Positions 1,127 to 62,312 of a stretch of 64,000 nucleotides of DNA are shown piece by piece (within the stretch, counting starts at the first letter, position 1; the number at the start of each line of letters is the position of its first letter). Source of the DNA: Vicinamibacteria bacterium (lineage in GTDB: Bacteria; Acidobacteriota; Vicinamibacteria; Marinacidobacterales; Marinacidobacteraceae). Below the pieces are notes generated by a model. That model did not search any database and was not told the DNA's origin. It was given only the letters and a program-made list of their open reading frames with translations. The DNA lies in the NCBI GenBank assembly GCA_963668695.2, contig CAXXLQ010000004.1, positions 3,296,001 to 3,360,000 on the forward strand, in the 5' to 3' direction. The position numbers and the translations under genes are program-made.

Positions 1127-1538
1127 ACAGCCGGTGGTGAAACCCGCGTGAGCGCCGAGGCCGGCCAGTTCTCCCGGTGGGGGCGAGGCCCAGTTCTCCC
1201 GGTGGGGCCAGTCCTCCCGGTGGGGGCCCGGCTGACAAGGCGCGTGAGGGAGGAGCCCCCACCGGGAGAACTGGCCCAGGTGTATTCCGACCGAAACGCA
1301 ACGATGAGCGGCGCGCAGCGACGCGGTTCAGCCGGGATGGATCGCCGGCCGAGCCCCCACCGGGAGAACTGGGCCGCGTGGGTTTCATCACCGGTTGTGG
1401 CCGGGATGGATCGCCGGCCGAGCCCCCACCGGGAGAACTGGGCCGCGCGGGTTTCATCACCGGCTGTTTGGCCGGGATGGATCGCCGGCCGAGCCCCCAC
1501 CGGGAGAACTGGGCCGCGTGGGTTTTGCCACCGGCTGT
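1127..1538 (+). mobile_element. Family A MITE-like element, expanded (7 short modules, triplicated right end)
   Basis: TA|ACAGCCGGTGGTGAAACCC...GGGTTTTGCCACCGGCTGT terminal inverted repeat; core shared with 14 other loci. Confidence 0.85.
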
Positions 1539-1621
1539 CAACGCTCGCGGTGTTCCGCCGCGACGCATCCGCTGTTCCGGGTCGTGGACGGCTCAGTCGA
1601 TTGGCGTCGATTAGCAGATGG

Positions 1622-1670
1622 CCGGCCTCATAAGCCGGAGGTCGCGGGTTCGAGTCCCGTCCCCGCCACC
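1622..1670 (+). tRNA. tRNA-Met(CAT) 3' half only (fragment/pseudogene, possible att scar)
   Basis: Anticodon arm CCGGC-CTCATAA-GCCGG, T arm GCGGG-TTCGAGT-CCCGT, acceptor strand CCCCGCC-A-CC; no matching 5' acceptor strand upstream. Confidence 0.7.
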
Positions 1671-1900
1671 CGCCCGTGGCACTGGTGGCAGAACATCCCG
1701 CGAGCGGCGCCTTCCCGACACGCTACCCGACTCCCGGTCGTCGATCCTGCGCCCGACCCCAACAATCCGGTGAGAATCCGGTGAGGCGCGTGGTGCGTCC
1801 CAACCATCCCCACCAACCCAAGAAACCGACCAAATCCCCGGGAAGAACCCGGGATCAGCGTCGATCCGGGAGCTGAGACCGGTCCCGAATCAGCCCCGAA

Positions 1901-2200
1901 TCAGCCCTGCTCCGCCCGCCCGGCCTCCTGGGCGAACCACATCGCCGCCTTCTTGAGAATGTCGCGTTCCTCCCGGAGGCGGCGAATTTCCTGTTTCGCC
2001 TCCCGAAGCTCACGGCGCTCGCCCTCGCTCCAGTCTTCGGACGCCCCGTTATCGGTTTCGGAAGCCGTCACCCAGTTCCGGATTGCCTGGGCGCTCGGCT
2101 CGAACTCGCGCGACAGCTCTTCCGGCGTCCGACCCGCCCGTACGAAATCGATCATCTGACGCCGAAACTCTTCCGTATAGCGGCGGGGCCTCTTGGTCAT
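1901..2200 (-). CDS. IS3-family OrfA-like HTH protein (no downstream OrfB)
   Basis: MTKRPRRYTEEFRRQMI...LSREFEPSAQAIRNWV...EIRRLREERDILKKAAMWFAQE is a typical IS3 OrfA; GGAG RBS. Confidence 0.85.
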   Translation of the reverse strand: MTKRPRRYTEEFRRQMIDFVRAGRTPEELSREFEPSAQAIRNWVTASETDNGASEDWSEGERRELREAKQEIRRLREERDILKKAAMWFAQEAGRAEQG

Positions 2201-3111
2201 TCTTGCTGCTCTCCTGGATCCGACGCCGCGACGCCGGGGTTTTCGGACGGAAACGAAGTTGCCGTTGCTGATCTCGACCCGGATTTCCGGATCAATTGGA
2301 GTCGCCTGTCCTCTCGCGCTTCCCAGCCGGACGCTCCGGCGCTGGCGCCACCACCCGCCGCCGCCAAGCGGGACGCGCCTCCCAACCCCATGATGATGCT
2401 GGGTGTCCACGACACAACCGGATCGGCAGCCAGATATGGTGCGAGACGGGACTTCATCTTCGTTGGGACATCTTACCCCGTTTTTGTAGCCAGTGAATTT
2501 TCTTGGGCGCCCCGATTTGCCAAACCCACCCACAATGAGCGGCGCGGGTTCGCACCGGGACCAAGGCGGGATACCCCGACTCTCCAGCGCGTCGGCCGTG
2601 GTCCGCGCTGCGGGCGCTCGATCAGCCCGACCGCTTTGGGGTTCCGGGTTTTTTCGCTACGGCCCGCGCTCGAACGCGCGACTCCTCGCGGGAGCGTCCC
2701 TCATCCGGACGGCGACGGCAGAGCTTCCGAAACCGGCCCGTCTCCTCAAACTTCCGGACCGGCGCGCGCCTTTCTTCCGCTTCGCGCCGCAAGTGTGCCG
2801 CACGCGCAGTCCCCCGTTCGCATCCAGAGGGGTCCGGGGCCCGCCGCAACCGCATTCCGGATCCCGACGTGATTTTCTTCGCACATTGGTTCGGGATCGT
2901 GTCATTTATGTAACGGACTTGTGTACACTTTTTGGGCATTCGCGCGACCGCTCTGGTGTCACTTTAGTGATTTGGGGATGGGGTAACTGGAAGCCCGCGC
3001 CGGGACCGTGCCTGAGAAGAAAACGGAAATGCCGCCCGACGGACCTTCGGCCGATCCGCGATCTTCGGCGCGACGGCGGAACCGGGGACCGAAACGCCTT
3101 CCGGGTGCCTG

Positions 3112-3645
3112 ATGGGAGACGCGCTGACTCTGGTGGGAGGCCAAAACGGCGGCGGCACGAGCCGCCTGCACGGTGCTTCCGGGGGTCTCCCGCGACCGGA
3201 GCCGGCAGAAGCATCCGGCGAGGGAAGCGTCTCGACCCCGAGCGAGGTGGCCTCCTCCCTTCCGAGTCCCGACAGCCCCCTCTGCAGCGTCGATCACGAC
3301 GTCATCTATCGGTTCATCGACGCGTACAAGTCCGAGCATCGAATCGCCACGATGGCGCGGATTCTCGGCGTCTCGCGGAGCGGCTTTTACGCTTGGAAGA
3401 CCCGACCGCTGAGCTGCCGGGCCCGGACGGACGAGGTACTCAAGAAGGAAATCCGCAGTGTGCATGCCTGTCACCACGGCACCTACGGCGCTCCCCGAAT
3501 CCACGGCGAGCTGCAACGCCAAGGCTGGAAGGTCAGTCGAAAGCGCGTTGCCCGGCTGATGCGAGAACTCGGCATCGACGGTCTGCCGGGCGGACCACGC
3601 CGGAGCAGAAAGAGGCTGACCCGCGTCGGTTCCCGCGTCGGTTAA
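3112..3645 (+). pseudogene. IS3-family OrfB N-terminal (HTH-like) fragment lacking the DDE domain
   Basis: YRFID...MARILGVSRSGFYAW...TYGAPRIHGELQRQGWKVSRKRVARLMRELGI; ends at a TAA formed by a MITE end. Confidence 0.8.
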
Positions 3646-3861
3646 CAGCCTGTGGTGGAACCCGGGTGAGCGCCGAGAGCGGCCAGTTCTCCCGGTGGGG
3701 GCGAGGCGCCCGCCTGACAAGGCGCGTGAGGGAGGAATACCTGGTGTATTTCGACCGAAACGCAACGCAGAGCGCCGCAAGCGCCAGTTCTCCCGGTGGG
3801 GGGGCGGTTCAGGCGGGATGGATCGCCGCTCGAACGCCGCGTGGGCTTCACCACCGGCTGT
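3645..3861 (+). mobile_element. Family A MITE-like element with modules in two slots
   Basis: TA|ACAGCCTGTGGTGGAACCC...CACCACCGGCTGT|TA. Confidence 0.9.
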
Positions 3862-4033
3862 TAAGGCACGCGCCCGCGTGCCCCTGCCCGCCGCAGCCGC
3901 AGACAGAAGGCGAGCAGCCGAAGCAACTCCGCCGACGGGACCGCACACCCCCGCATCCGGATCGGGGCACCCGGGGCGCCCCCGCAAACCGCCCGGGCCG
4001 GTTTGGAGATGCTCCGCGGCTCGCTGCCGCGGT

Positions 4034-6625
4034 TCAGGCGGGGCGCAGTTGCCGGCCGATTCGGGTCCACAGCCAGGGGACGCGCCGAACCGACAGGTCG
4101 AGGAGATAGGCGATCAAGCCCAGCAGCGCGAGGATCGGCCAGAGGGCGCGCGACCGCACCACCCGATCCCCATTCGCCGAAAGTACCTGCGCCGGAGTGG
4201 GACCGACGACGCCGCCCGTCTCCGCGGCCAGCGCCCTGAGGGCGGCGTCGTCCGCCGGCAGGAAGCGGTACTCGTCGGGATAGCTCAGGTGGATGGCCCG
4301 CTCCAGGTCGGCTCCGGCGGCGAGATCGGCCGGAAGGGAATCGCCGACGATGCGGAAGCGCGCCGTATCGCCGGGACTGAGATCGAGAGGCACCTCGGTC
4401 TCGAACCGCCCGGGGCCGGTCTGCCGGATGATGGTGCGGCCCACAAGTCCGCCATACGAAATCTCGAGTTCGGGAACCACGTCTTCGGGATAACTCCCGT
4501 CCTCGCGGATCAGCGACAGGCTCACGACGCCGGCGTTCCCGCGGCGCGACACCTCGAAGTCCAGGTCGGCCCCCTCCCCCCGGCGCATCGCGTCCCGAAC
4601 CACCTGGGCCCAGAACTTGCCGTAGCCGTCCCATTCCACCCAGTTGGCAGCCCAGCGATTCTTGCAGTCGGAAGTGAACATCGAGGCCCGGCCAAGCCCG
4701 TACTGCCAGCGGGCGAGCAGCGGCTCTTCATCGGGGCCTTCAAGAAGCACCTCGGCGGTGTCCTTGGCCATGGTCGCCACGAAGCCCTTCAGTTCGGGCG
4801 CAGTCTCGAAGTCCAGACCCTCGAGGACGCGGGCCATCTGCCGGACCACCGGGCGGAAGGGCTCCTCGACCAGCGTCGCGTCGAGAGCGATCTGGGTCTC
4901 TTCGACGAAGATCTGCTGGACCCGCGCTGCGTCCCGGATGAAGTAGCTGCGTCCGTCGCCCCACTCCGCGATGTCCGAGAGCAGTTCCCGGTCGGCCTCT
5001 TCCCCCACCGCGACCGTGGAGATGGTGATCTCGTCCTCCTTCATTCGGGTCGCCAGTTCCTCGTAGTCGTCGGGATAGGTCTTGCCGTCGGAGAGCAGGA
5101 TCACGTGCTTGACCTTGGAGGGGCTCTCCGTGAGCTGCTCGTAGGCGCGATCGAGCGCGGGGTAGATGTTCGTCTGGGCGCTCGCCTGAATCCGGCTGAT
5201 GCCCTCCTTGATCCACTCGCGGTCGGCCACGAGCTGGAGCGGGATCGTGGTGTAGGGATTCCAGTCGAAGGTCACGACGCCGAAGCGGTGGGTGTCTTCG
5301 AGCAGATCGAGCGCCGCCTTGGTGGCTTCCTTGGCCAGCGCGATCTTCCGCCCGTACATGCTGTAGGACTTGTCGAGCACGATCACCAGCGACAGGTCCT
5401 TCCACTTTTCCTCGATCTGGAAGTCCACCGGCAACGCCTCTTCGAGCACCGATTCCGAATACCCGTCCTCCCCGTAGCTCGACTCGCCGGCGGCGAAGAC
5501 GAGTCCCCCGCCCTCGTCGCGGACGTAGCTGGCGAGCTGCCGCATCACCGGCTCGGGAAGACGGTCGGGCGCCACGTCGCTCAACACGACTACGTCCCAG
5601 GTGTTCAGATCGAGGCGGGGAAGCGCCGACGCCGGCGCCGTGTTCACCGTGACGCCCTGCGATTCCAAGGCGTCCCGGAGGTAGCGGGCGCTCTCCGGTT
5701 GTCCCTCGATATAGAGCACGTTCGCCTCGTCTCCGACCGGCACTTCCACGGCGCGGCGGTTGTTGACCTCAAGCCGGTCCCCGGCCACCTGGATCTCGGC
5801 TTCGAGGACCGTCATCCCCGATTCTTCGATCCGCACCGGAACCGGGACCGTCGAGGCGCCGCGTGGAAGCTCGACCTCGATGGCCGCGAGCGTCTCGCCG
5901 TCGGCCAGGATCCGGATCTCCGCCGGCCCTCCGGCAGCGGAGAACACCTCCACCTCAACCCCCGTCATCTCTCCGGCCCGGACGGCGGGCGGCAGGTGGA
6001 TCGCATTCACGAAACCGCCGCCGTCGCTTCTCACTCCGGACGGCGCGGGGAAGACCCGCACCCCAGCTTCCTTGAGGAACGCCATCGCCGCAGCGGTATC
6101 GCCCTCGGTCTCGCGTCCGTCGCTGAACAGCACCACCCGCTTGAGCCGGTCCGGGGGCAGGCGGGCTGCCGCGTGGCGGAGGGCTGCTTCGATGTTGGTC
6201 CGGCCCTGATCCAAGGCTCCCGGCGGGGGGCGCCCCGCGGCGGCCCCGCTGTCAAAGACCTGAACTTCGAGCAGGGCGTCCGCACTCGGCACCGACACCG
6301 CACGATCCGCGAAGGCCACGAAGTGCGCATCCTCGCTGGCGAGCGCCCGGCTCGCCTCCCGGGCCCAGGCGACCGCCTCCTGCATCGACCCCGACGCCAC
6401 GCTGCGGGACAGATCCACCACGAACGCCACCGCGACGTCCCGCGAACCGGCGCGCACCACCGGACGGCAGAGCGCGAGCAGCAGAAACGCTGCCGCGAGC
6501 AGGCGAAGGACGAGCGAAGCGCGCAGCCTGAGCTTCGGCCAGCGGAGGTTCGACCGCAACGCCACCACCACCATCACGCCGAGGAGCGGCAGCAACAGGA
6601 GCGGCCAGAGGGCTTCAAAAATCAT
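4034..6625 (-). CDS. Membrane-anchored double-VWA domain protein with GATase-like (DUF1355-type) central domain
   Basis: N-terminal TMs, MIDAS motifs DLSRSV and DKSYSM, LLSDG, VLYIEG, C-terminal TM (LWPILALL). Confidence 0.85.
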   Translation of the reverse strand: MIFEALWPLLLLPLLGVMVVVALRSNLRWPKLRLRASLVLRLLAAAFLLLALCRPVVRAGSRDVAVAFVVDLSRSVASGSMQEAVAWAREASRALASEDAHFVAFADRAVSVPSADALLEVQVFDSGAAAGRPPPGALDQGRTNIEAALRHAAARLPPDRLKRVVLFSDGRETEGDTAAAMAFLKEAGVRVFPAPSGVRSDGGGFVNAIHLPPAVRAGEMTGVEVEVFSAAGGPAEIRILADGETLAAIEVELPRGASTVPVPVRIEESGMTVLEAEIQVAGDRLEVNNRRAVEVPVGDEANVLYIEGQPESARYLRDALESQGVTVNTAPASALPRLDLNTWDVVVLSDVAPDRLPEPVMRQLASYVRDEGGGLVFAAGESSYGEDGYSESVLEEALPVDFQIEEKWKDLSLVIVLDKSYSMYGRKIALAKEATKAALDLLEDTHRFGVVTFDWNPYTTIPLQLVADREWIKEGISRIQASAQTNIYPALDRAYEQLTESPSKVKHVILLSDGKTYPDDYEELATRMKEDEITISTVAVGEEADRELLSDIAEWGDGRSYFIRDAARVQQIFVEETQIALDATLVEEPFRPVVRQMARVLEGLDFETAPELKGFVATMAKDTAEVLLEGPDEEPLLARWQYGLGRASMFTSDCKNRWAANWVEWDGYGKFWAQVVRDAMRRGEGADLDFEVSRRGNAGVVSLSLIREDGSYPEDVVPELEISYGGLVGRTIIRQTGPGRFETEVPLDLSPGDTARFRIVGDSLPADLAAGADLERAIHLSYPDEYRFLPADDAALRALAAETGGVVGPTPAQVLSANGDRVVRSRALWPILALLGLIAYLLDLSVRRVPWLWTRIGRQLRPA

Positions 6626-6863
6626 GAATTGCAGGCGCGGAATGCGGAATTCTATGCGCGCGGGCCGAACGAGCGCTTCCCCCTGCATCCCAAGCGGCCG
6701 CAACCGACTCCCAGCCGGACACCCGCGGCCCGGCATGACGCCGGGAGCCCGAATGGACTACGGTTGCTTTCCCGTGCCATTTCTTCAAGTCTGTGAGCGC
6801 TTGCGACTAATTTCGGCGACCCGGCCCGCCCCACGCCCGCCCGCCAATTCAAGGAGTCCCGCC

Positions 6864-8961: not shown

Positions 8962-8969
8962 GAAGCAGC

Positions 8970-9161
8970 ATGCCCATGGACGAAACCGCGCGCGGCCTCG
9001 GAGGCTTCCTCGCCCGCCGGCTCCAGACGCTCCGGTTCCTGGTCAACACTTTCCGCTTCATCTTCCTGTTTCTCACCAAGGCGCGCGAGGTCCGGCGCCG
9101 CTACGCCGAGGCCGAACGGCGCGGAGAGAAGATCTGGCTTGATCATGGTCCGTTCCGCTAA
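8970..9161 (+). CDS. Small hypothetical protein with one hydrophobic segment
   Basis: 63 aa, follows the upstream stop by 8 bp, gene-like codon usage. Confidence 0.55.
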   Translation: MPMDETARGLGGFLARRLQTLRFLVNTFRFIFLFLTKAREVRRRYAEAERRGEKIWLDHGPFR

Positions 9162-9325
9162 CAGTCTGTGGATAAAGTGACGTGTGCGCCGAGGCTGGCT
9201 AGGCGCCCGAGGGAGGAATACCTGGTGTATTTCGACCGAAGCGCAACGACGAGCGCCTCGAAGAGGCGCGGTTCAGCCGGGATGCATCGCCAGTTGAACG
9301 CCGCGTGACTTTGTTCACAGGCTGT
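9161..9325 (+). mobile_element. Family A MITE-like element, DnaA-box end subtype, module-free
   Basis: TA|ACAGTCTGTGGATAAAGT...ACTTTGTTCACAGGCTGT. Confidence 0.85.
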
Positions 9326-9357
9326 TCGAGGCTCCGAAGAGGGGGGCGCCCACTGAA

Positions 9358-10344
9358 ATGAAAGCCGCCAAGTGGAAGCTCCAGGAAGTTCCCCCCGCCA
9401 AGTACGCCTTCGGCTACCAGGTTCCCCCGCGCTCGGGGAACGAGATCAACGGCCACGGGGAACGCGCGCGGCGCCGCGCCACCCAGGTGTTCCATAACGC
9501 CGACGGGACCAAGCCGATCGCCTGGCAGGGGCTCGACGACTTCTTCATGTGCGTGAACCCGTGGCAGGTCGTCCGGCACCGGCTCATCAACAAATTCGAG
9601 CTGCGAAAGGAACGGGGACCGGTGGCCCGCCGGGTCGTGGACGAGGGTCCCGACAGGAACGCCGCGTTCGTGAAGGCCGCCGCCACGGAAGCCGGCGCGA
9701 CCCTCGTCGGAATCACCGAAGTGCAGGAGAACGACGTCTTTGAGGGCCACCGGGCGCCGCACCGCTACGCCATCTGCCTGGGTTTCCCGATGCAGCGGGA
9801 GGAGATGGCCTACGCCGCGCGCCCCCGGGGGGCCGCCGAAGTGATGCGGGCATATCGCCAGATCGCCCTCATCGCGATGAGCCTCGGGAAAACGATCCGG
9901 GGCCGGGGTTTCCCCGCCAAGGCCTACGGGGACGCGAACGCCACCGACATCCTGCACATCCCGCTTGCGGTCCGCGCCGGACTCGGCCAGCTCGGCAAAC
10001 ACGGCTCCTTGATCAGTCGCGAACACGGCTCCAACTTCCGGCTCGCCGCGGTGCTCACGGACATGCCGCTCGCGTCGGACGAACCGCGCGACATCGGGGT
10101 GGACGACGTGTGCACGCGCTGCCGCCGCTGCGTGATCGACTGTCCTCCCGACGCGATCCACGAGGAAAAGCAGTGGGTGCGGGGAGAACAGCGCTGGTAC
10201 GTAGACTTCGACAAGTGCGTCCCCTACTTCACGAAGACCTTCGGCTGCGGCATCTGCATCGAGGTCTGCCCCTGGTCGGAACCGGGACGGGGCGAGAAAC
10301 TCAGCGAGCTGATGCTGGCGAAACGGGAGCGGGCGCAGCCCTAG
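9358..10344 (+). CDS. Reductive dehalogenase/QueG-like 2x[4Fe-4S] protein
   Basis: AGATLVGIT, HIPLAVRAGLGQLGKHGSLI, RLAAVLTDMPL, CTRCRRCVIDCP and C-x9-CGICIEVCPW. Confidence 0.8.
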   Translation: MKAAKWKLQEVPPAKYAFGYQVPPRSGNEINGHGERARRRATQVFHNADGTKPIAWQGLDDFFMCVNPWQVVRHRLINKFELRKERGPVARRVVDEGPDRNAAFVKAAATEAGATLVGITEVQENDVFEGHRAPHRYAICLGFPMQREEMAYAARPRGAAEVMRAYRQIALIAMSLGKTIRGRGFPAKAYGDANATDILHIPLAVRAGLGQLGKHGSLISREHGSNFRLAAVLTDMPLASDEPRDIGVDDVCTRCRRCVIDCPPDAIHEEKQWVRGEQRWYVDFDKCVPYFTKTFGCGICIEVCPWSEPGRGEKLSELMLAKRERAQP

Positions 10345-10643
10345 CAGCCGGTGGCGAAACCCAGGTGGCGTTCGAGCGGCGATCCATCCCGGCTGAACCG
10401 CGCCGCTATGCGGCGCTCTGCGTTGCGTTTCGGTCGAAATACACCAGGTATTCCTCCCTCACGCGCCTTGTCAGCCAGGCGCCTCGCCGCTCTCGGCGCT
10501 CGCCCGGGTTCCACCACCGGTTGCTAGCAGCCGGTGGCGAAACCCACGCGGCCCGGTTCTCCCGGTGGGGGCTCGGCCGGCAATCCATCCAGGCTGAACC
10601 GCGTCGCTTCGCGGCGCTCGTCGTTTCGTTTCGGTCGATACCT
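10344..10643 (-). mobile_element. Family A: complete module-free copy (10344-10524) plus truncated tandem copy (10527-~10643) sharing a TA
   Basis: TA|GCAGCCGGTGG...CCACCGGTTGC|TA|GCAGCCGGTGG. Confidence 0.9.
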
Positions 10644-10701
10644 GGGGGCTGTTTTTCCGGACGGTGCGGCCCCATCCATCCACTCCCGAGGAGAAGGAAC
10701 C

Positions 10702-12355: not shown

Positions 12356-12555
12356 ACTGCCCGCGGTGGGACCCGGGTGAGCGCCGAGGCCGGCCGGTTC
12401 GCCCGGTAGGGTAAGGCGCCCGGCTGACAAGGCGCGTGAGGGAGGAGCCCCCACCGGGAGAACTGGCCCGGGTGTATTCCGACCGAAACGCAGCGATGAG
12501 CGGCGCGAGACGGAGTGGTTCAGCCGTGATGGATCGCCGGCCGGACACCGCGTGC
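12356..12555 (+). mobile_element. Family A MITE, degenerate/truncated
   Basis: Core GTGAGCGCCGAG...CTGACAAGGCGCGTGAGGGAGG...GATGGATCGCCGG with eroded ends. Confidence 0.75.
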
Positions 12556-14434: not shown

Positions 14435-15422
14435 CTACGGAAGGAGCAAGGGGCCCAGGAAGCTGGCGTAGAAAGCCAACCCCATCGCGATGCCGAGGCA
14501 CATCGCCCCCACGGCGACCCGGCGATGGTCGCGCGGGAAGTACCTCCACAGCCAGATGGCGGCTCCCACCAGGGAAATGACGCCCGGTAGTGCGAGAACG
14601 GCCAGGGGGATCCCCGTAATCCTCTCCAGCCAGCATTCGTCACAGACGGCATTCACCCGGGCCCCGCCGAGGGTAAGCACGACAGCGATCAGGGCAGCGA
14701 AGATACGAAGGTTGGACAGATAACCCATGGCCACGAGCAACGGGTGTGCTTTCCACTTCGCACATAGATAGCAACAGGCGAAAACGACGGCATACGTCGC
14801 GACCAGTCCCATGGAGAGAGCCGTCGCCACCCCCCACACCGGAGCGATCTCCGCCGCCGCCGCCAGGTCGCCCTTCATCACCGCGTTGAAGAAACCGCCG
14901 CTCCCGCTAACAGCCGGTGGTGGAACCCGGGTGAGCGCCGAGAGCGGCCAGTTCTCCCGGTGGGGGGGCGGTTCAGCCGGGATGCATCGCCGCTCGAACG
15001 CCGCCGGGGTTTCACGACAGGCTGTTAACAGCCTGTGGTGGAACCCGGGTGAGCGCCGAGAGCGGCGAGGCCCAGTTCTCCCGGTGGGGGTCCGGCTGAC
15101 AAGGCGCGTGAGGGAGGAATACCTGGTGTATTTCGACCGAAACGCAACGATGAGCGGCGCGAAGCGACGCGGTTCAGCCGGGATGCATCGCCGCTCGAAC
15201 GCCGCCTGGGTTTCACCACAGGCTGTTAAAGCCCGCCGAGCCGTAGTGGAGCGCCGCGCCAGGAAGACCCAGAGACCAGAAGACCAGGAAATGACCCAAC
15301 TCGTGCAAGAGCGCCGCGGGCGGCGTGGACAGGACGCCCCAAAACCACCAGCGCAGCGCAACCTGCTTCCATGATGCGGCTCCGAGCGGGGAGCTTTCGA
15401 CGATCGTGCTGTCGGTGGCCAT
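14435..15422 (-). pseudogene. Paralog of 13564-14232 interrupted by two tandem MITEs
   Basis: Removing 14910-15228 restores ...HYGSAGF-SGSGGFF..., collinear with the intact paralog (RYGSASFSGSDDF). Confidence 0.9.
14910..15226 (+). mobile_element. Two tandem family A MITEs (14910-15025 internally deleted; 15028-15226)
   Basis: TA|ACAGCC...GGCTGT|TA|ACAGCC...GGCTGT|TA; empty site reconstructable. Confidence 0.95.
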
Positions 15423-17809: not shown

Positions 17810-18098
17810 GCAGCCTGTGGACAAAGTGACGCGGCGTTCCCGAGCCAGAAGGGATGGGGGTCGGGTGACCCCGCCCCCCGTCCCTTCCGCTCCGGGGTCT
17901 CCGCGGTGCTGGCGCCCCGCTCCGGAAGCGACCGGCGATGCATCCCCGCTGAGCCGCGCCGCTTCGCGGCGCTCATCGTTGCGCTTCGGTCGAAATACAC
18001 TCGGGCCAGTTCTCCCGGTGGGGGCTCCTCCCTCGCGCGCCTTGTCAGCCGGGCGCCTCACCGGTCTCGGCGCTCTCGTCACCTTGTCCACAGGCTGC
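17810..18098 (-). mobile_element. Family A MITE (DnaA-box ends) carrying a ~90-bp nested cargo at 17837-17927
   Basis: TA|GCAGCCTGTGGACAAAGT...ACCTTGTCCACAGGCTGC. Confidence 0.85.
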
Positions 18099-21704: not shown

Positions 21705-21797
21705 AAGCGCGGGGACGGCTTGGAGCGCCGACCTCTGGGCAGTTCTCCCGGTGGGGCCCGGCACGCGCGGGAGCGCTAAACCAGCGCCGATGACGCT
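21705..21797 (+). repeat. Family B REP-like unit with the 18-nt module in its hairpin
   Basis: AAGCGCGGGGACGGCT-GGAGCGCCG...CCGGCA...AACCAGCGCCGATGACGCT shared with 41960-42134. Confidence 0.75.
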
Positions 21798-32724: not shown

Positions 32725-32941
32725 CAGCCTGTGGTGAAACCCACGCGGCGTTCGAGCGGCGATCCATCCCGCCTGAACCGCCCCCCCACCGGGAGAACTG
32801 GCGCTTTGCGGCGCTCTGCGTTGCGTTTCGGTCGAAATACACTCGGTATTCCTCCCTCACGCGCCTTGTCAGCCGGGCGCCTCGCCCCCACCGGGAGAAC
32901 TGGCCGCTCTCGGCGCTCACCCGGGTTCCACCACAGGCTGC
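32724..32941 (-). mobile_element. Family A MITE-like element
   Basis: TA|GCAGCCTGTGGTGAAACCC...CCACCACAGGCTGC|TA at a stop codon. Confidence 0.9.
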
Positions 32942-41875: not shown

Positions 41876-42134
41876 GCCGGGAACGCCGGGATTCAGGAGC
41901 GCCGGCCTTCAGACCGGCATCGCGGCCAAGGCCGCGAAACTCCCATCGCCAACCGCAAAGAAGCGCGGGGACGGCTGGGAGCGCCGGCCTTCAGACCGGC
42001 ATCGCGGCCACAGGCCGCGAAACTCCCATCGCCAACCGCAAAGAAGCGCGCGACAGCGGGCCCCCACCGGGAGAACTGGCCACCGGCCTCCGGCCGGCAT
42101 CGCGCGAGAGCGCGAAACCAGCGCCGATGACGCT
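41876..42134 (+). repeat. Family B REP-like tandem (~82-bp unit x2 plus a third unit with the module)
   Basis: GGAGCGCCGGCCTTCAGACCGGC at 41896 and 41978. Confidence 0.85.
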
Positions 42135-44999: not shown

Positions 45000-45155
45000 T
45001 AGAGGTCGGCGTTGCCGGGCCTGCGCGCCACCCTGCATTCAGAGGTACGCGCCGAGAAGGGAACCATTCCAACGGTTGGGGTCTGCGCCGCCGCGGCCCT
45101 CGAGGCCGCTGTGCCGGGCCCCACCGGGAGAACTGCCCAGAGGTCGGCGTTCCCT
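45000..45155 (-). repeat. Family B REP-like remnant with the module
   Basis: 45111-45149 is the reverse complement of 21726-21764. Confidence 0.65.
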
Positions 45156-47294: not shown

Positions 47295-47825
47295 GGAGCC
47301 TGTGGATAAAGTGGCGTGAGCGCCGAGAGCGGTGAGGCGCCCGGCTGACAAGGCGCGCGAGGGAGGAATACCGCGTGTATTTCGACCGAAGCGCAACGAT
47401 GAGCGACGCGAAGCGGCGCGGTGAACAGCCGGTGGTGGAACCCACGTGAGCGCCGAGGTTGGCAAGTTCTCCCGGTGGGGGCGAGGCGCCCGGCTGACAA
47501 GGCACGTGAGGGAGGAATACCGCGTGTATTTCGACCGAAGCGCAACGATGAGCGACGCGAAGCGGCACGGTGAACAGCCGGTGGTGGAACCCACGTGAGC
47601 GCCGAGGTTGGCCAGTTCTCCCGGTGGGGGCGAGGCGCCCGGCTGACAAGGCGCGTGAGGGAGGAATACCGGGTGTATTCCGACCGAAACGCAACGATGA
47701 GCGGCGCGAAGCGACGCGGTCAGCCGGGATGGATCGCCGGCCGAACGCCGCATGGGTTTCATCACCGGTTGTTTGGCCGGGATGGATCGCCGCTCGAACG
47801 CCGCGTGACTTTGTCCACAGGCTGC
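47295..47825 (+). mobile_element. Family A array (three head-to-tail units within DnaA-box ends)
   Basis: TA|GGAGCCTGTGGATAAAGT...ACTTTGTCCACAGGCTGC|TA; internal junctions GGTGAACAGCCGGTGG. Confidence 0.9.
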
Positions 47826-51413: not shown

Positions 51414-51585
51414 GCAGCCCATAGACCGGATACGCCGGCATTCGAGCGACGATCCATCCCGGCTGAATCGCTCCGCTCGGCGTTGCGATCCGGTCGAAAT
51501 ACGCAGGGTATTCCTCCCAACTCGCGCCTGCTCAGCCGGGCGCCTCCCCGCTTTCGGTGCTCGGCCTGTTCGGTCCATGGACTGC
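51414..51585 (-). mobile_element. Highly diverged family A copy
   Basis: CGATCCATCCCGGCTGAA, CGGTCGAAATAC, GTATTCCTCCC, CAGCCGGGCGCC retained; ends GCAGCCCATAGACC/GGTCCATGGACTGC|TA. Confidence 0.7.
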
Positions 51586-51636
51586 TAGTCTATTCACGAC
51601 AACCGCCCGGAATCCGTTCCGGGCGTCGCTTAATTC

Positions 51637-54833: not shown

Positions 54834-54837
54834 GGAG

Positions 54838-55575: not shown

Positions 55576-55602
55576 CGCGAGCGGTCCCGCGTAGCCGGCG
55601 TA

Positions 55603-55855
55603 ACAGTCTGTAGTGGAACCCGCGTGAGCGCCGAGGCCGGGGAGGCCCAGTTCTCCCGGTGGGGCCAGTCCTCCCGGTGGGGGCCCGGCTGACAAGGCGC
55701 GTGAGGGAGGAGCCCCCACCGGGAGAACTGGCCCGGGCGTATTTCGACCGAAGCGCAACGATGAGCGGCGCGAAGCGACGCGGTTCAGCCGGGATGGATC
55801 GCCGGCTGAGCCCCCACCGGGAGAACTGGGCCGCGTGGGTTTCACCACAGACTGT
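55603..55855 (+). mobile_element. Family A MITE-like element with four modules
   Basis: TA|ACAGTCTGTAGTGGAACCC...GGGTTTCACCACAGACTGT. Confidence 0.9.
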
Positions 55856-55861
55856 TCAACG

Positions 55862-58201: not shown

Positions 58202-58239
58202 GCTGCTCAAGAGGCTCCTTCGGGCGCCTTGGGTGTCCA

Positions 58240-58456
58240 GCAGCCTGTGGACAAAGTCACGCGGCCCAGTTCTCCCGGTGGGGGCTCGACCGGCGATGCA
58301 TCCCGGCTGAACCGCGCCACTTCGTGGCGCTCTGCGTTGCGCTTCGGTCGAAATACGCTCGGGCCAGTTCTCCCGGTGGGGGCTCCTCCCCCGCGCGCCT
58401 TGTCAGCCACGCGCCTCGCCGCTCTCGGCGCTCACGCCACTTTATCCACAGGCTGC
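58240..58456 (-). mobile_element. Family A MITE, DnaA-box ends
   Basis: GCAGCCTGTGGACAAAGT...ACTTTATCCACAGGCTGC|TA at the cupin stop codon. Confidence 0.9.
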
Positions 58457-58839
58457 TAGTCGTCTCCCCCGCGCAGGTAAGCGTCGGTTCCGTCCAGCCA
58501 GTCCTGTCTGGGCGGGGTGAATATGTCGACGTCGAGGGTGTCTTCAAGCGCGATCGCCTTGTGGGGCACCCAGGAGGGAAGCACCAGAACCTCCCCCGCT
58601 CCCACGTCGATCGGTTCCGAATCCTCGTCCTCGATCCAGAAGCGGAGCACCCCGCTGATCACGTAGGTGATCTGTTCATTCTCGTGCGAGTGCATCGGTA
58701 CCACCGCACCCTTGTCCAGATAGACGTGGGTGAGCATGGCGCGTTCCCCGGTGATGATCCGGCGGGTAAGCCGGTCGTTCAGGCGCTCCTTGTCCATGGA
58801 TTCCCAACGGATGTGACGAACTTGATCTCTGGCTGTCAC
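58456..58839 (-). CDS. Cupin domain protein
   Basis: PMHSHENEQITYV, PSWVPH, DIFTPPRQDW. Confidence 0.9.
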   Translation of the reverse strand: MTARDQVRHIRWESMDKERLNDRLTRRIITGERAMLTHVYLDKGAVVPMHSHENEQITYVISGVLRFWIEDEDSEPIDVGAGEVLVLPSWVPHKAIALEDTLDVDIFTPPRQDWLDGTDAYLRGGDD

Positions 58840-58939
58840 GCGGCGTCCCCTTCCCGCCCCACCTTGGACGGACTCCGATGATACCCGGGCCGAAGCACCG
58901 AAGACTGCTAACAGTCGGTGCCGAAACTCTGGCGCGATC

Positions 58940-59853
58940 CATTCGCGGCGCCGAGCGCCGCGGGGGAGGGGCGTGGGGAGGGATTCCCCTCCCCACGAAA
59001 GACGATGGCGCGGATCGCGAAGCGATGCGCGCCATCACCCCGTGGGGTTAACAGCCTGTGGTGAAACCCACGCGGCGTTCGAGCGGCGATCCATCCCGCC
59101 CAAACAACCGGTAGTGAAACCCACGCGGCGTTCGGCCGGCGATCCATCCCGGCTGAACCGCGTCGCTACGCGCCGCTCATCGTTGCGTTTCGGTCGGAAT
59201 ACACCCGGGCCAGTTCTCCCGGTGGGGGCTCCTCCCTCACGCGCCTTGTCAGCCGGGCGCCTCGCCCCCACCGGGAGAACTGGCCAGCCTCGGCGCTCAC
59301 CCGGGTTCCACCAAAGGCTGTTAGCGCCCCGCATCCGAAGAATGCAGGGAGCAGGTGTGCTTTTTCGCCGGGTGGCGCGATGCCGGGTGCTTGCCCCTCG
59401 GGGAGATTCCCTCCCGGCGCGGACTCAATGCAGAGATCCGGCGGCGCGGAGCGCCGCCGGGGAGGGGTGTGGGGAGGGGTTTCCCCTCCCCACGTAAGAC
59501 GATGGCGCGGATCGCGAAGCGATGCGCGCCATCACCCCGTGGGCTGTTAGCGCCCCGCATCCGAAGAATGCAGGGAGCAGGTGTGCTTTTTCGCCGGGTG
59601 GCGCGATGCCGGGTGCTTGCCCCTCGGGGAGATTCCCTCCCGGCGCGGACTCAATGCAGAGATCTGGCGGCGCGGAGCGCCGCCGGGGAGGGGCGTGGGG
59701 AGGGATTCCCCTCCCCACGGGAAAGGGTGGGGAGAATCGCGAAGCGATTCTCGACGCCGCCCCGAGGGGTTAGCGCCCCGCATGCGAAGAATGCAGGGAG
59801 CAGATGTGCTTTTTCGCCGGGTGGCGCGATGCGGGGTGCTTGCCCCACGGGAG
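58940..59853. repeat. Family C ~225-bp tandem repeat (half unit, two full units at 59322 and 59548, partial at 59771)
   Basis: Units start TAGCGCCCCGCAT; internal hairpins GTGGGGAGGG-x-CCCTCCCCAC and GATGGCGCG...CGCGCCATC. Confidence 0.9.
59051..59321 (-). mobile_element. Family A MITE inserted at the TA of a family C junction
   Basis: GGGGT|TA|ACAGCC...GGCTGT|TA|GCGCCCC; empty junction seen at 59766-59779. Confidence 0.9.
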
Positions 59854-59854
59854 G

Positions 59855-60226
59855 TCAGTTCCAGTAACCCACCTGGAGCCCCAGAACGATTCCCGTACCC
59901 CCGACGACCAGCGGGAACAGGGCGAATCCGAGGAGGGTCCGCAATCCGAGGCTCAGGGATCCTGGGACGAACACGGCCGCCCCTTGGACGAGAAACGTTG
60001 CGTAGAGCGCGCCGTAGGCGACGTCCGGCTGCGCGCAGAAGGGGCAATCGGGCGGACCCGCCGTCTGGATGTTGCAAAACGCAGCGCCGCCGTTCCATAG
60101 CGAGACGCAGCCGCAGTCGAAGATCAGGTGGCAGACATTCAGGAAGAACGTCGCGGCGAACGCCACCATTGCCGCGAGCACGAGAAGGCGGCCCATGAGC
60201 CTGCGGGAATCGATTCGTTTGCCCAT
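59855..60226 (-). CDS. Small Cys-containing membrane protein
   Basis: Three hydrophobic segments; CHLIFDCGC...CNI...CPFC. Confidence 0.65.
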   Translation of the reverse strand: MGKRIDSRRLMGRLLVLAAMVAFAATFFLNVCHLIFDCGCVSLWNGGAAFCNIQTAGPPDCPFCAQPDVAYGALYATFLVQGAAVFVPGSLSLGLRTLLGFALFPLVVGGTGIVLGLQVGYWN

Positions 60227-60380
60227 GCGCCGCCCCCCCTGCGATCTATCGTGCGTGACCGGAGTCTAAAGGGGGAACCGGGTCCCCTGCGGCCCCCGGA
60301 CCCTGGCAGAGGGGAATGGTCCCGGGAATGGTCGCCGCCGCCGTGCCTTCGCGTATCGCTGTTCCCTTCCCGCCCCCCGA

Positions 60381-61238
60381 GCAGCCTGTGAACAAAGTGG
60401 CGCGGCGTTCCGGCGGCGATGCATCCCGGCCAAACAGCCGGTGGTGGAACCCAAGCGGCGTTCGGCCGGCGATCCATCCCGGCTGAACCGCCAGTAATGA
60501 AACCCGCGCGGCGTTCGGCCGGCGATCCATCCCGGCTGAACCGCCAGTAATGAAACCCGCGCGGCCCAGTTCTCCCGGTGGGGGCTCGGCCGGCGATCCA
60601 TCCCGGCTGAACCGCGTCGCTGCGCGCCGCTCATCGTTGCGTTTCGGTCGCAACACACCCGGGCCAGTTCTCCCGGTGGGGGCTCCTCCTTCACGCGCCT
60701 TGTCAGCCGGGCGCCTCGCCCCCACCGGGAGAACTGGCCAGCCTCGGCGCTCACCCGGGGTCCACCACCGGCTGTTCACCGCGTCGCTTCGCGCCGCTCA
60801 TCGTTGCGTTTCGGTCGCAACACACCCGGGCCAGTTCTCCCGGTGGGGGCTCCTCCCTCACGCGCCTTGTCAGCCGGGCGCCTCGCCCCCACCGGGAGAA
60901 CTGGCCGGCCTCGGCGCTCACCCGGGTCCACCACCGGCTGTTCACCGCGTCGCTTCGCGCCGCTCATCGTTGCGCTTCGGTCGCAATACACCCGGGCCAG
61001 TTCTCCCGGTGGGGGCTCCTCCCTCACGCGCCTTGTCAGCCGGACGCCTCGCCCCCACCGGGAGAACCGGCCGGCCTCGGCGCTCACCCGGGTTCCACCA
61101 CCGGCCGTTCACCGCGCCGTTTCACGTCGCTCATCGTTGCGCTTCGGTCGAAATACACTTGGTACGCCTCCCTCGCGCGCCTTGTCAGCCGGGCGCCTCA
61201 CCGCTGTCGGCGCTCACACCACCTTGTCCGCAGGCTAC
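60381..61238 (-). mobile_element. Large family A tandem array (about 4 core units plus repeated end segments)
   Basis: GCAGCCTGTGAACAAAGT...TTGTCCGCAGGCTAC|TA; ~167-bp periodicity. Confidence 0.9.
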
Positions 61239-61253
61239 TAGAATGCCTCGAAC

Positions 61254-62108
61254 ATGGATCGGAGTGGGCGACGGGTCGCCGGCCTGTTGCTCCTGCCGGC
61301 CCTTCTCGTCGTGGTTCTGGTGGCCGCGGTGCCCATCGGGTTGCTGTTCCGGGTAGCGCTCTATCCGCCCGGCCCGGTAGCTCCACTGAGCGGCGGTCCG
61401 GTGCTGGATTCCTTCGCCGGATTGCTGAGTGCTCCGTATCCGTCCGTGGCGCTGCGCACGCTGCGCCTGTCAGTGTTGACCACCGTTCTGGTGACGCTCC
61501 TGGGTTTTCCCGTGGCCCTGTTCCTCTCCCGCTCGCGGGGGCTCTCCCGACGGGTTCAGACGCTGCTGATCGTCTCCCCGCTACTCATGTCGGTGGTCGT
61601 CCGGGCTTACGGATGGATGTTGATTCTCGGAAGGCAGGGATTCGTCGGTGAGACGCTCGCCGCGCTGTCACTCCCCCGCGCCGGTCTCCTCCACACGGAG
61701 GCCGCGGTTCTGCTCGCGCTGACCGAATCCTTCCTTCCGTTCATGATTCTGGCGCTGGCGGCGAGCCTCGATCGGATCGATTCGGACCTCCTGGCAGCGG
61801 CGCGGGGACTGGGGGCTTCTTCGGCGCGCACCTTCTTTGCCGTCGTGGTGCCCCTCACGCTACCCGGTTTCCTCGCCGGAGCGAGCTTCGTGATGGTCGG
61901 AAGCCTCTCCGCCTACGCCATACCCTCCTTGCTCGGCGGGTCGGCCGCCCGCACCTTCGTGATGGAGATCTACGAACTGGTCACCATCAACTTCGACTGG
62001 CCCACAGCGGCCGCCGCCTCCATCGCGCTGCTCCTGTTCGCCTCGACGCTTCTCGGCGGAGCGGCGCTCCTGAGTCGCCGTCGCTCGGCGCGCGCCTTCG
62101 GGACCTGA
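61254..62108 (+). CDS. ABC transporter permease (PotB-like)
   Basis: PLLMSVVVRAYGW, LLAAARGLGA (EAA loop), PSLLGG. Confidence 0.88.
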   Translation: MDRSGRRVAGLLLLPALLVVVLVAAVPIGLLFRVALYPPGPVAPLSGGPVLDSFAGLLSAPYPSVALRTLRLSVLTTVLVTLLGFPVALFLSRSRGLSRRVQTLLIVSPLLMSVVVRAYGWMLILGRQGFVGETLAALSLPRAGLLHTEAAVLLALTESFLPFMILALAASLDRIDSDLLAAARGLGASSARTFFAVVVPLTLPGFLAGASFVMVGSLSAYAIPSLLGGSAARTFVMEIYELVTINFDWPTAAAASIALLLFASTLLGGAALLSRRRSARAFGT

Positions 62109-62113
62109 CCCGA

Positions 62114-62312
62114 GCACCCTGTGGACAAAGTCGCGCAGCGTTCCCGAGCCAGAAGGGATGGGGGTCGGGTAGTTCCGCCCCCCGTCCCTTCCGCTCCGGG
62201 GTCTACGCGGTGCTTGCGCCCCGCTCGGAAAACAAGCGGCGATGCATCCCGGCTGGCCCCCACCGGGAGAACTGGCGCTTTCGGCGCTCACGCCACCTTG
62301 CTCACAGGCTGC
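62114..62312 (-). mobile_element. Family A short derivative with the same ~90-bp cargo (62141-62231)
   Basis: GCACCCTGTGGACAAAGT...CTCACAGGCTGC; cargo matches 17837-17927. Confidence 0.85.

What the first reader, a model, noticed from the sequence alone, without database searches (positions are those of the whole stretch)
1165..62275. A fixed ~18-20-nt module repeatedly written into repeat elements (candidate undescribed micro-mobile/templated-insertion system)
Seen: CCAGTTCTCCCGGTGGGG(GC) or its reverse complement occurs about 38 times by manual count, none inside an intact CDS. Compared with module-free family A copies (9161-9325, 10344-10524), it is present or absent independently at five slots: AGCGGC^GAGG (3683, forward), GAGGC^GCCCGG (15072, forward), GGAGGA^ATAC (1255, reverse), AAGCG^ (3784, forward) and GCCGA^ACGCC (1353, reverse). 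It usually replaces 1-4 host bases rather than making a clean target duplication. It forms head-to-tail doublets with an 18-nt period (1190-1225, 55647-55684). It also sits in the unrelated family B repeats (21740, 42060, 45118), so it is not simply part of one MITE. It has no terminal inverted repeats and is much smaller than typical MITEs. Inference: a constant oligomer is captured at breaks in hairpin DNA, for example an RT/retron-like product, repeat addition or a transposase-end fragment. It could instead be a selected protein-binding or uptake signal.
Basis: partly seen in the sequence, partly recalled or inferred. Interest (0 to 1): 0.82.

Follow-up and report, generated by a model that had tools for sequence, protein, structure and literature searches.

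The report
Tiny 18-base mobile DNA module
An 18-22-base DNA unit, present about 1,600 times in this sponge-associated acidobacterial genome, appears and disappears on its own inside other repeats and even inside two genes, making it one of the smallest apparently mobile DNA units seen, by a mechanism still unknown.

Summary
CCAGTTCTCCCGGTGGGG (M) occurs 37 times in the window and 1,631 times in the 4.1-Mb genome. It is found in 22 of 28 genomes of the bacterial family, in independent assemblies, so it is not an adapter.

M has sharp edges and almost no partial copies. It sits at six or more slots of a ~181-nt MITE (family A) in nearly all combinations, and also in small hairpin repeats.

At orthologous loci M is gained or lost while equally long backbone blocks are not: 14 of 52 M absent in the sister species, against 1 of 244 control observations.

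M alone has inserted in frame (+18 nt) into two conserved genes, an AcrB-type transporter (G000 and G001 only) and CoaBC (G010 only). Junctions replace 0-4 host bases and make no target duplication.

I found no reverse transcriptase and no Y1/RAYT gene, and no IS, phage or plasmid source.

Best reading (0.55): a very small non-autonomous insertion module, closest to the cyanobacterial "small dispersed repeats". Primary insertions are rare; the MITE and recombination spread it further. The mechanism is unknown.

Earlier scan notes described the host MITE in this genome, but not the module.

The parts
1165..1182 (+). M copy, family A slot a
1190..1207 (+). M copy, slot b, first unit of an 18-nt-period doublet
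1208..1225 (+). M copy (T6C variant), slot b, second unit of the doublet
1257..1274 (-). M copy, slot c
1355..1372 (-). M copy, slot e
1424..1441 (-). M copy, slot e type, in a tandem ~71-nt right-arm sub-repeat
1495..1512 (-). M copy, slot e type, in a tandem right-arm sub-repeat
3637..3861 (+). Family A MITE copy (slots a and d filled). The orthologous copy has a only in G001, and b doublet + c + e in G004
3683..3700 (+). M copy, slot a
3784..3801 (+). M copy, slot d (absent from the orthologous copies in G001 and G004)
9161..9325 (+). Family A variant copy without M
10344..10524 (-). Full-length family A copy without M, used as the reference; folds as one long hairpin
10553..10570 (+). M copy (1 mismatch), slot e type
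12449..12466 (-). M copy, context not examined individually
14948..14965 (+). M copy joining the left flank of slot a to the right flank of slot d (internally deleted family A form)
15072..15089 (+). M copy, slot b, single
18006..18023 (+). M copy, context not examined individually
21739..21756 (+). M copy (1 mismatch) in a family B hairpin repeat. The G001 orthologous region has two family B units without M
32784..32801 (-). M copy, context not examined individually
32886..32903 (-). M copy, context not examined individually
42062..42079 (-). M copy directly 3' of a family B hairpin
45119..45136 (-). M copy (1 mismatch) in a family B repeat
47463..47480 (+). M copy (1 mismatch), context not examined individually
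47612..47629 (+). M copy, context not examined individually
55647..55664 (+). M copy, first unit of a doublet
55665..55682 (+). M copy (T6C), second unit of the doublet
55714..55731 (-). M copy, 31 nt after the doublet (the usual b-to-c spacing)
55812..55829 (-). M copy, 80 nt further on (the usual c-to-e spacing)
58266..58283 (+). M copy, slot e type; shared with the G001 orthologue
58364..58381 (+). M copy, slot c type; shared with the G001 orthologue
59210..59227 (+). M copy, slot c type; shared with the G001 orthologue
59266..59283 (-). M copy, slot a type; shared with the G001 orthologue
60566..60583 (+). M copy, slot e type
60664..60681 (+). M copy, slot c type
60720..60737 (-). M copy, slot a type
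60831..60848 (+). M copy, slot c type
60887..60904 (-). M copy, slot a type
60997..61014 (+). M copy, slot c type
61053..61070 (-). M copy (1 mismatch), slot a type
61100..61240 (+). Last partial family A unit of the array, with both slots empty (TAC and ACCGCTGT where neighbouring units carry M)
62258..62275 (-). M copy in a divergent family A-like copy

Best explanation
M is CCAGTTCTCCCGGTGGGG, usually extended by G then C at its 3' end and preceded by G then G or C. I read it as a very small (18-22 nt), non-coding, non-autonomous insertion module.

Shown:
- M is a discrete all-or-none unit with sharp edges.
- It occurs in several unrelated hosts: family A MITE slots a-f, family B hairpins in at least four positions, a short MITE, and unique DNA.
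- It is gained or lost in place at orthologous loci between strains and species, whereas equally long stretches of the host repeat are not.
- On its own it has entered two conserved protein-coding genes in frame.
- Insertion adds a net 17-19 nt (mostly 18), replaces 0-4 host bases, makes no target duplication, and occurs in either orientation.

Inferred:
- Primary insertions are rare, homology-independent events in which a preformed or precisely copied ~20-nt unit is joined into G+C-rich sites, often in or beside hairpins. They depend on an unidentified trans-acting activity, or on end joining of a defined fragment.
- Most of the ~1,600 copies then arose secondarily. Family A amplified in the clade that also carries IS630 transposases. 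Short-tract recombination between the >700 homologous family A copies flips slots between the filled and the canonical empty state.
For: Abundance and edges:
- 1,631 copies with up to 2 mismatches, 1,288 of them exact.
- Per-position conservation is 0.98-1.00 inside M (position 6 is T or C), falling to background within 3 nt outside.
- The 5' 12-mer lies outside a full M in only 7 of 1,341 cases, and the 3' 12-mer in 44 of 1,577.

Independence from the host repeat:
- 601 full-length family A copies show almost all slot combinations, and 148 are empty.
- Slots a and b are only 7 nt apart yet nearly independent: 58 both, 140 a only, 105 b only, 298 neither.

Turnover in place:
- Two strain-variant contigs differ only by ATA versus a 21-nt M unit at slot c, in two adjacent copies.
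- One orthologous family A copy reads a+d in G000, a in G001, and bb+c+e in G004.
- In 384 kb aligned to G001: 44 M shared, 23 G000-only, 21 G001-only. In 307 kb aligned to G004: 16, 14 and 15.
- With flank quality filters, M is absent in 14 of 52, 14 of 51, 7 of 19 and 12 of 27 cases. Four control 18-mers of the family A backbone are absent in 1 of 244 observations in total.

Insertions at unique sites:
- AcrB-family gene (Pfam ACR_tran 3-1020 of 1021). G000 and G001 carry PHRENW, encoded by M; the other 22 orthologues in the 24-sequence alignment lack it. DNA is net +18.
- CoaBC: G010 carries +18 nt, which is M, against 5 aligned congeners.
- A non-repeat site in G001: ATC replaced by 21 nt.

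Other points:
- Low-M complete genome G010 has 15 M but many contiguous module-free family A copies.
- M is not an artefact. It is in 22 of 28 family genomes and in long-read and Illumina MAGs. The unique flanks are held without differences by runs from two studies.
Against: - No enzyme, source locus or intermediate was found. Pfam RVT_1 and Y1_Tnp are absent. IS630 and IS110 copies are not bounded by M. No multicopy segment is bounded by M pairs.
- Gains at a given family A slot always show the same junction. That fits copying from other filled copies by recombination better than repeated de novo insertion.
- At window 3784 the gained slot d comes with two nearby lineage-specific substitutions, as a conversion tract would.
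- Only three clean unique-site events were found, so primary insertion is rare.
- The near-random fit of occupancy to the backbone tree is weak evidence, because 93 columns of a star-like burst carry little phylogenetic signal.
- My test for M-specific sequence constraint failed its control. Orthologous M pairs differ at 2.6-3.2% (G001), but control backbone 18-mers chosen the same way differ at 1.7-5.3%.
Confidence: 0.55

Rival explanations
1. There is no insertion activity. M is simply a conserved sub-module of the repeat families. The presence/absence pattern comes from ectopic gene conversion, unequal recombination and deletion among hundreds of homologous copies, plus MITE transposition. 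The few unique-site cases are accidental illegitimate recombination.
For: - Junctions are identical at each slot across hundreds of copies.
- Empty slots always show the canonical family A sequence, for example ATA at slot c.
- There are possible co-converted substitutions beside the gained slot d.
- M-to-M fusion forms such as window 14948 show recombination between modules.
- Tandem arrays of up to six or more units fit slippage.
- M and family A have exactly the same phyletic distribution, 22 of 28 genomes.
Against: - M sits in at least a dozen unrelated contexts that need separate founding events.
- The insertions into AcrB and CoaBC have no flanking homology to any other M locus.
- Slots a and b, 7 nt apart, assort almost independently, which is hard to explain by homologous tracts.
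- M's edges are sharp, whereas template switching would give ragged extents.
- M per family A copy differs more than tenfold between congeners.
Confidence: 0.25
2. M is a functional sequence signal, such as a binding site for an abundant DNA- or RNA-binding protein or a DNA-uptake-type signal. It is kept and multiplied by selection or by a molecular drive, and the repeats are merely its carriers.
For: - The same 18-mer, and the same T/C variant at position 6, occur across at least five genera.
- There are about 1,600 copies, equal on both strands and with no replichore bias.
- Copies often form inverted pairs 31-38 nt apart.
- These features resemble DUS/USS (this comparison is from my own knowledge).
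Against: - Copy number ranges from 1 and 15 to 1,566 between complete genomes of the same family, and from 15 to 1,566 within the genus.
- Almost none of the copies lie in coding DNA, although M has no stop codon in any frame (frames read by eye).
- New copies arise as 18-nt indels, not by point mutation.
- No excess conservation over control blocks at orthologous sites.
- M alone has no special fold: z = +0.64 against shuffles.
Confidence: 0.12
3. M is written by a reverse transcriptase, retron or telomerase-like repeat-addition enzyme from a fixed RNA template.
For: Head-to-tail arrays with an exact 18-nt period, and a fixed unit.
Against: - No RVT_1 match in the 4.1-Mb assembly, and no first-look candidates at all.
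- No series of 5'-truncated copies.
- M occurs in both orientations at internal sites.
Confidence: 0.03
4. M is an adapter, primer or assembly artefact.
For: None found.
Against: - M is present in 22 of 28 genomes of one bacterial family and in 0 of 16 genomes of two sister families.
- It is present in MAGs from different projects and sequencing technologies.
- It lies in frame in conserved genes.
- There is only one hit in 2.9 million viral contigs, and nothing significant in the phage or plasmid collections.
Confidence: 0.005

Closest known systems
Small dispersed repeats (SDR1-8) of Nostoc and other cyanobacteria (Elhai et al. 2008, Genome Res 18:1484). The paper is not held. I rely on my recollection and on passages in papers that cite it (PMC4390886; PMC2884548; PMC3116915).
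   Same: Both are roughly 20-nt dispersed repeats too small to be MITEs. Both are found inserted precisely inside other repeats and are regarded as possibly mobile. [quoted passage not shown] Both are sometimes tandemly repeated (PMC2884548), and neither has a known mechanism.
   Different: The phylum differs (Acidobacteriota, Vicinamibacteria). M is shorter (18-22 nt against 21-27 nt as I recall) and shows no hairpin of its own. M replaces 0-4 host bases, occupies many slots of one MITE in combination, and has entered genes in frame. I could not check the SDR paper for these points.
NIME arrays with dRS3 repeats of Neisseria (PMC1797815; passages read)
   Same: A fixed ~20-bp unit is interspersed among many families of 50-150-bp repeat units in dynamic mosaic arrays that differ between strains. 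It has been proposed to be a recombinase site.
   Different: dRS3 has 6-bp terminal inverted repeats and a variable centre, and it flanks the repeat units. M is asymmetric and invariant, and lies inside the units. No phage or IS110-type recombinase link was found here.
REP / REPIN elements with RAYT transposases, and BIME mosaics (PMC3116915, passages read; PMC3733652, abstract seen in the search listing)
   Same: High-copy short extragenic units, often as inverted pairs that can form a hairpin, combined in mosaics with other motifs.
   Different: REPs are palindromic hairpins of 20-40 bp; M is not. No Y1/RAYT gene is present in the genome.
Rickettsia palindromic elements (recalled: Ogata et al. 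2000; no paper consulted)
   Same: Repeats that insert in frame into protein-coding genes and are tolerated in loops.
   Different: RPEs are about 100-150 nt palindromic elements; M is 18 nt. The 102-nt family B element in the sacsin-domain gene is the closer parallel.

Membership tests
Cyanobacterial small dispersed repeats (SDR) | Dispersed repeat of about 20-27 nt at high copy number | tested here: met
   An 18-mer core with a 20-22 nt conserved span; 1,631 copies. It lies slightly below the recalled SDR size range.
Cyanobacterial small dispersed repeats (SDR) | Present in some copies of an otherwise homologous sequence and absent from others, with precise edges | tested here: met
Cyanobacterial small dispersed repeats (SDR) | Sequence relationship or common descent with the described SDR families | not testable with these tools
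The host phylum is different.
REP / REPIN-RAYT | The unit is an imperfect palindrome that forms a hairpin | tested here: not met
   M with flanks folds at -3.1 kcal/mol, z = +0.64; 150 of 200 shuffles fold at least as well.
REP / REPIN-RAYT | A cognate Y1 (RAYT) transposase gene in the genome | tested here: not met
   PF01797: 0 matches in the own genome (completeness 91.7%); the control search hits 6 of 14 reference genomes.
MITE | Terminal inverted repeats and a target-site duplication | tested here: not met
   M has no inverted termini (sequence). Junctions replace 0-4 bases and duplicate nothing. The host family A does have inverted termini.
NIME / dRS3 | 20-bp unit with 6-bp terminal inverted repeats flanking RS units | tested here: not met
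   M is asymmetric and lies inside its host units.
DNA uptake sequences (DUS/USS) | About a thousand or more copies of an exact motif on both strands, conserved in a bacterial family | tested here: met
DNA uptake sequences (DUS/USS) | Motif arises by point mutation and is common within genes; copy number is similar among competent relatives (recalled features) | tested here: not met
   Copies arise as 18-nt indels. At most 2-3 of the copies are in coding DNA. Counts range from 1 to 1,566 in complete genomes.
DNA uptake sequences (DUS/USS) | Preferential uptake of M-bearing DNA | not testable with these tools
   Needs transformation assays; the organism is uncultured.
Retron / RT-templated DNA | A reverse transcriptase gene | tested here: not met
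   PF00078: 0 matches and 0 first-look candidates.
CRISPR repeat | Identity with the repeat of a CRISPR array | tested here: not met
   The only array (C4:3280875-3283431, 43 repeats) has an unrelated repeat.

The most novel reading that the evidence does not exclude
M is the smallest autonomous unit of DNA mobility yet seen in bacteria. A dedicated, sequence-specific machinery that is not a reverse transcriptase, a Y1 transposase or a DDE transposase acting on inverted ends cuts out or copies a ~20-nt oligonucleotide. It then pastes that oligonucleotide into G+C-rich sites while replacing a few bases. This would be a new class of mobile element shared with the cyanobacterial SDRs.
Probability: 0.22. 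Interest if true: 0.9.

Novelty: new variant of a known kind. Interest (0 to 1): 0.66.

Why it matters
How can DNA units far too small to carry transposase binding sites at two ends move at all? That question has been open since the cyanobacterial small dispersed repeats were described. This lineage offers a clean natural experiment:
- One invariant 18-mer.
- Complete long-read genomes spanning 0 to about 1,600 copies within one family.
- Dated gains and losses at orthologous sites.
- Two in-frame insertions into essential-type genes that give exact empty and filled sites.

That makes phyletic profiling for the responsible factor, and population-level detection of new events, directly feasible.

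The module also matters in practice. It breaks short-read assemblies, changes hairpin structures downstream of many genes, and can add six residues to proteins.

Tried and rejected
Sources and enzymes:
- Reverse transcriptase and Y1/RAYT source: none in the genome.
- IS630 as carrier: three loci, none with M at its ends. One sits between two family A copies.
- IS110-family link, following the dRS3 analogy: the family is present in 11 of 28 genomes, including 8 M-bearing complete or nearly complete (1-20 contigs) assemblies, and in none of the 6 M-free ones. But only 2 of the 11 fetched IS110 loci hold an exact M at all, the nearest about 350 nt from the gene. Rejected as a carrier; the correlation is left as a lead.
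- Multicopy segments bounded by M pairs: none that look like an IS.
- CRISPR repeat identity: rejected.
- Phage, plasmid and viral-contig origin: nothing significant.
- Rfam: only a tRNA in the window.
- Ku: present in 27 of 28 genomes, so uninformative.

Mechanism and constraint tests:
- Quasi-palindrome 'mirror copying' between the arms of family A: the main slots are not mirror positions. Mirror positions are occupied only 3 and 12 times.
- Replichore strand bias: none, overall or for family B copies.
- Sequence-constraint test: orthologous M looked 8-fold more conserved than its flanks, but the control with backbone 18-mers chosen the same way gave similar values. I withdraw that claim.

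Reads:
- Public reads: only Logan contigs were available. They break at the repeat, so they say nothing about insertion polymorphism or transcription at the locus laid.

Failed or uninformative calls:
- Junction clustering by single linkage over-merged everything. Junction diversity therefore rests.
- One search failed (sequence too long) and was done. One search failed (term too long) and was redone.

Literature:
- Elhai et al. 2008 is not held.
- A search for 'Marinacidobacterium' found 0 papers.
- 'Acidobacteria + sponge + miniature inverted-repeat' found 1 paper, which I did not read.
- My statement that this module is not in print rests only.

Full report
**1. The observation.**

The 18-mer CCAGTTCTCCCGGTGGGG (M) occurs 37 times in the window with up to 2 mismatches: 30 exact and 7 with one mismatch. 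None is expected by chance.

The window lies in a 4.1-Mb, 67.5% G+C genome that holds 1,631 copies, 1,288 of them exact. Contigs C1 and C3 are strain-variant duplicates of parts of the chromosome, so the non-redundant figure is 1,565 on C4.

Every position of M is 0.98-1.00 conserved over 1,565 copies, except position 6 (T 0.90, C 0.10). Conservation extends to G at -2, G or C at -1, and G and C at +19 and +20. Beyond that it collapses.

Copies are equally frequent on both strands all along the chromosome. They form 601 clusters, 259 of which are single copies. Preferred spacings are 0, 7, 31, 38, 53 and 80 nt.

**2. Not an artefact; where it lives.**

M is found in 22 of 28 genomes of the bacterial family. 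It is in all 15 genomes of the genus and in four further genera. It is in none of 16 genomes from two sister families.

Record titles name marine Acidobacteriota: 'Ca. Marinacidobacterium', Vicinamibacteria, and sponge MAGs. They come from long-read and Illumina assemblies of different projects.

In complete or nearly complete assemblies the counts are:

| Genome | M copies |
|---|---|
| G000 | 1,566 |
| G004 | 776 |
| G001 | 747 |
| G008 | 692 |
| G018 | 259 |
| G009 | 121 |
| G014 | 87 |
| G019 | 70 |
| G010 | 15 |
| G020 | 1 |
| G017, G022, G024, G042, G043 | 0 |

Contigs of runs from two studies and two host organisms hold the unique flanks of the locus I laid without differences.

**3. 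The hosts.**

Family A is a ~181-nt element with inverted termini that folds into one long hairpin. Earlier notes of this scan call it a TA-duplicating, IS630-linked MITE; I did not test the target site. The genome has 732 copies, 601 of them full length.

Of the M copies, 1,218 lie in family A and 413 lie outside it.

The outside copies sit in:
- partial or variant family A units;
- a family of small G+C-rich hairpin repeats (family B), in at least four different positions relative to the hairpin;
- a short MITE;
- other minor contexts;
- 34 singleton contexts.

Other genomes add further junction types, including M as the loop of a hairpin.

For the commonest family B hairpin the genome holds about as many empty forms (58) as filled ones (58).

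**4. Independence from the host.**

In family A, M occupies slots at consensus positions 29-41, 44, 73, 111-126, 154-158 and about 168. Nearly every combination exists, and 148 copies are empty. Slots a and b, 7 nt apart, are almost independent.

Occupancy hardly follows a tree of the backbone. For slot c, 168 changes are needed against 193 for shuffled labels. Copies with identical backbones share all five slot states in only 40% of 58 pairs. These two tests are weak on their own, because a burst-like family carries little tree signal.

**5. Direct evidence of turnover in place.**

- The strain-variant contig C3 and the chromosome differ, within 400 nearly identical bases, only by ATA versus GCCCCCACCGGGAGAACTGGC at slot c of two adjacent copies.
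- The family A copy at window 3637-3861 is orthologous in three species and carries a+d (G000), a (G001), or b doublet + c + e (G004).
- Over 384 kb aligned to G001 (92.5% identity), 44 M are shared, 23 are only in G000 and 21 only in G001, and 15 align to diverged sequence.
- Over 307 kb aligned to G004, the figures are 16, 14, 15 and 9.
- Of these, 7 of 22, 12 of 20, 6 of 14 and 8 of 15 are clean module-only indels by my criterion. The rest lie in larger indels or poor alignment.
- With a filter on flank quality, M is missing from the other species in 14 of 52, 14 of 51, 7 of 19 and 12 of 27 cases. Four control 18-mers of the family A backbone are missing in 1 of 244 observations.
- Outgroup states were available for only 11 clean events and point both ways.

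**6. Insertion of M alone into unique DNA.**

(i) *AcrB-family transporter.* The gene has a full-length ACR_tran match. G000 and its sister G001 have six extra residues, PHRENW, encoded by M. The other 22 orthologues in the 24-sequence alignment, from seven genera, lack them. G008 was not in that alignment, but its match is 18 nt shorter. In DNA, GAGCCGGTGCGGGAC (G004) corresponds to GAGCCCGGCCCCCACCGGGAGAACTGGCGGGAT (G000), a net +18.

(ii) *CoaBC.* In G010 only, a loop reads GGGCCCG-ACCAGTTCTCCCGGTGGGGGG-CCGACC where five congeners read GGGCCCG-GAC-CCGACC, a net +18.

(iii) *A non-repeat site in G001.* ATC is replaced by 21 nt.

Neither gene insertion has flanks resembling those of any other M locus.

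M has no stop codon in any of its six frames (read from the sequence).

**7. Junction rules.**

| Site | Bases inserted | Host bases replaced | Net |
|---|---|---|---|
| Slot b | 18, or multiples of 18 | 0 | +18 |
| Slot e | 20 | 2 | +18 |
| Slot c | 21 | 3 | +18 |
| CoaBC | 21 | 3 | +18 |
| G001 unique site | 21 | 3 | +18 |
| AcrB | 21-22 | 3-4 | +18 |
| Family B | 19-20 | 0-1 | +19 |
| Slot a | not resolved | not resolved | about +19 |
| Slot d | not resolved | not resolved | about +17 |

There is no target duplication and no fixed target motif beyond G+C-rich flanks. Both orientations occur. Partial copies are rare. Tandem arrays reach six or more units.

**8. What I could not find.**

- No reverse transcriptase, no Y1/RAYT gene, and no IS with M ends.
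- The CRISPR array has an unrelated repeat.
- No phage, plasmid or viral source.
- M alone has no fold.

IS630 transposases occur in 7 of 28 genomes, including all four M-rich, family A-rich genomes. They are absent from complete genomes that still have 15-259 M. They therefore probably explain the family A burst, not M itself.

Family A and M have the same phyletic distribution. Yet G010 has many module-free family A copies and only 15 M.

IS110 genes track M presence loosely but are not adjacent to M.

Ku is nearly universal in the family.

**9. A claim I withdraw.**

Orthologous M pairs differ at about 2-3% while flanks differ at 8-15%. However, backbone 18-mers selected by the same near-consensus rule differ at 1.7-5.3%. 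Extra constraint on M is therefore not shown.

**10. Reading.**

The identical junction at each slot, and the canonical empty state, indicate that most slot flips are copied from other repeats by recombination. The founding events need a homology-independent insertion of a sharply defined unit.

I therefore favour a rare primary insertion process (unknown factor, or end joining of a defined fragment), followed by amplification through the MITE and recombination (0.55). The rivals are recombination alone (0.25) and a selected or driven sequence signal (0.12).

**11. Comparison with what is known.**

The closest described things are the cyanobacterial small dispersed repeats. These are ~20-nt units that insert precisely into other repeats and may be mobile (passages in PMC4390886 and PMC2884548; the original paper is not held). 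Next closest are Neisseria dRS3/NIME mosaics (PMC1797815).

M fails the defining features of REP/RAYT, MITE, dRS3, retron and CRISPR repeats.

I found no description of this module or of repeats in this lineage.

Noticed in passing
Genome contigs C1 (144.5 kb) and C3 (31 kb) against C4:304-421 kb and C4:3505-3538 kb; outside the window: Both small contigs are strain-variant duplicates of chromosome segments (about 99.5% and 97.6-99.7% identity). This probably explains the 9.3% 'contamination' figure, and it gives a built-in two-strain comparison.
   Followed up: yes
G000 C4:1820206-1821105 (locus L131:1036-1137); outside the window: A 102-nt family B element that includes M is inserted in frame in a sacsin-domain gene of G000 only. 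The orthologues of G001, G008, G010, G004 and G006 are contiguous across the site. Family B is therefore itself recently mobile and can enter genes.
   Followed up: yes
G000 C4:3280875-3283431 and C4:3284095-3284739; 11-15 kb upstream of the window: A CRISPR array of 43 repeats (GGTCCATCCCCGCGCGTGCG...) beside a weak Cas1 match.
   Followed up: partly
Family-wide: IS630-type (DDE_3) transposase genes are confined to 7 of 28 genomes. Among complete or nearly complete genomes of the genus they occur exactly in the clade with 427-608 first-look family A candidates and 692-1,566 M copies.
   Followed up: partly
Family-wide: IS110-family genes are present in 11 of 28 genomes, all of which carry M, and in none of the 6 M-free genomes. 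They are not adjacent to M in the 11 loci fetched.
   Followed up: partly
window 1066-1107: A 12-nt tandem repeat (CTGACGCGATCC, about 3.5 units) directly upstream of the family A pile-up.
   Followed up: no
window 1603-1668: A tRNA gene (Rfam RF00005, 34.1 bits) about 60 nt downstream of the end of the family A pile-up (about 90 nt after its last M copy).
   Followed up: no
window 1330-1540 and 60400-60590: The right arm of family A is tandemly reiterated with a ~71-nt period. Units with and without M alternate in the same array.
   Followed up: partly
Loci L017, L018, L032, L057 (another genus of the family): Partial 13-nt units (CCAGTTCTCCCGG) are stacked in tandem in front of a full M. M also occupies slots not used in G000.
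   Followed up: no
G000 C4:574339-575917, 3896182-3897045, 2554739-2555621 and others; outside the window: Several other satellite-like arrays, of up to 25 regularly spaced repeats and unrelated to M. An earlier scan note describes one such family.
   Followed up: no
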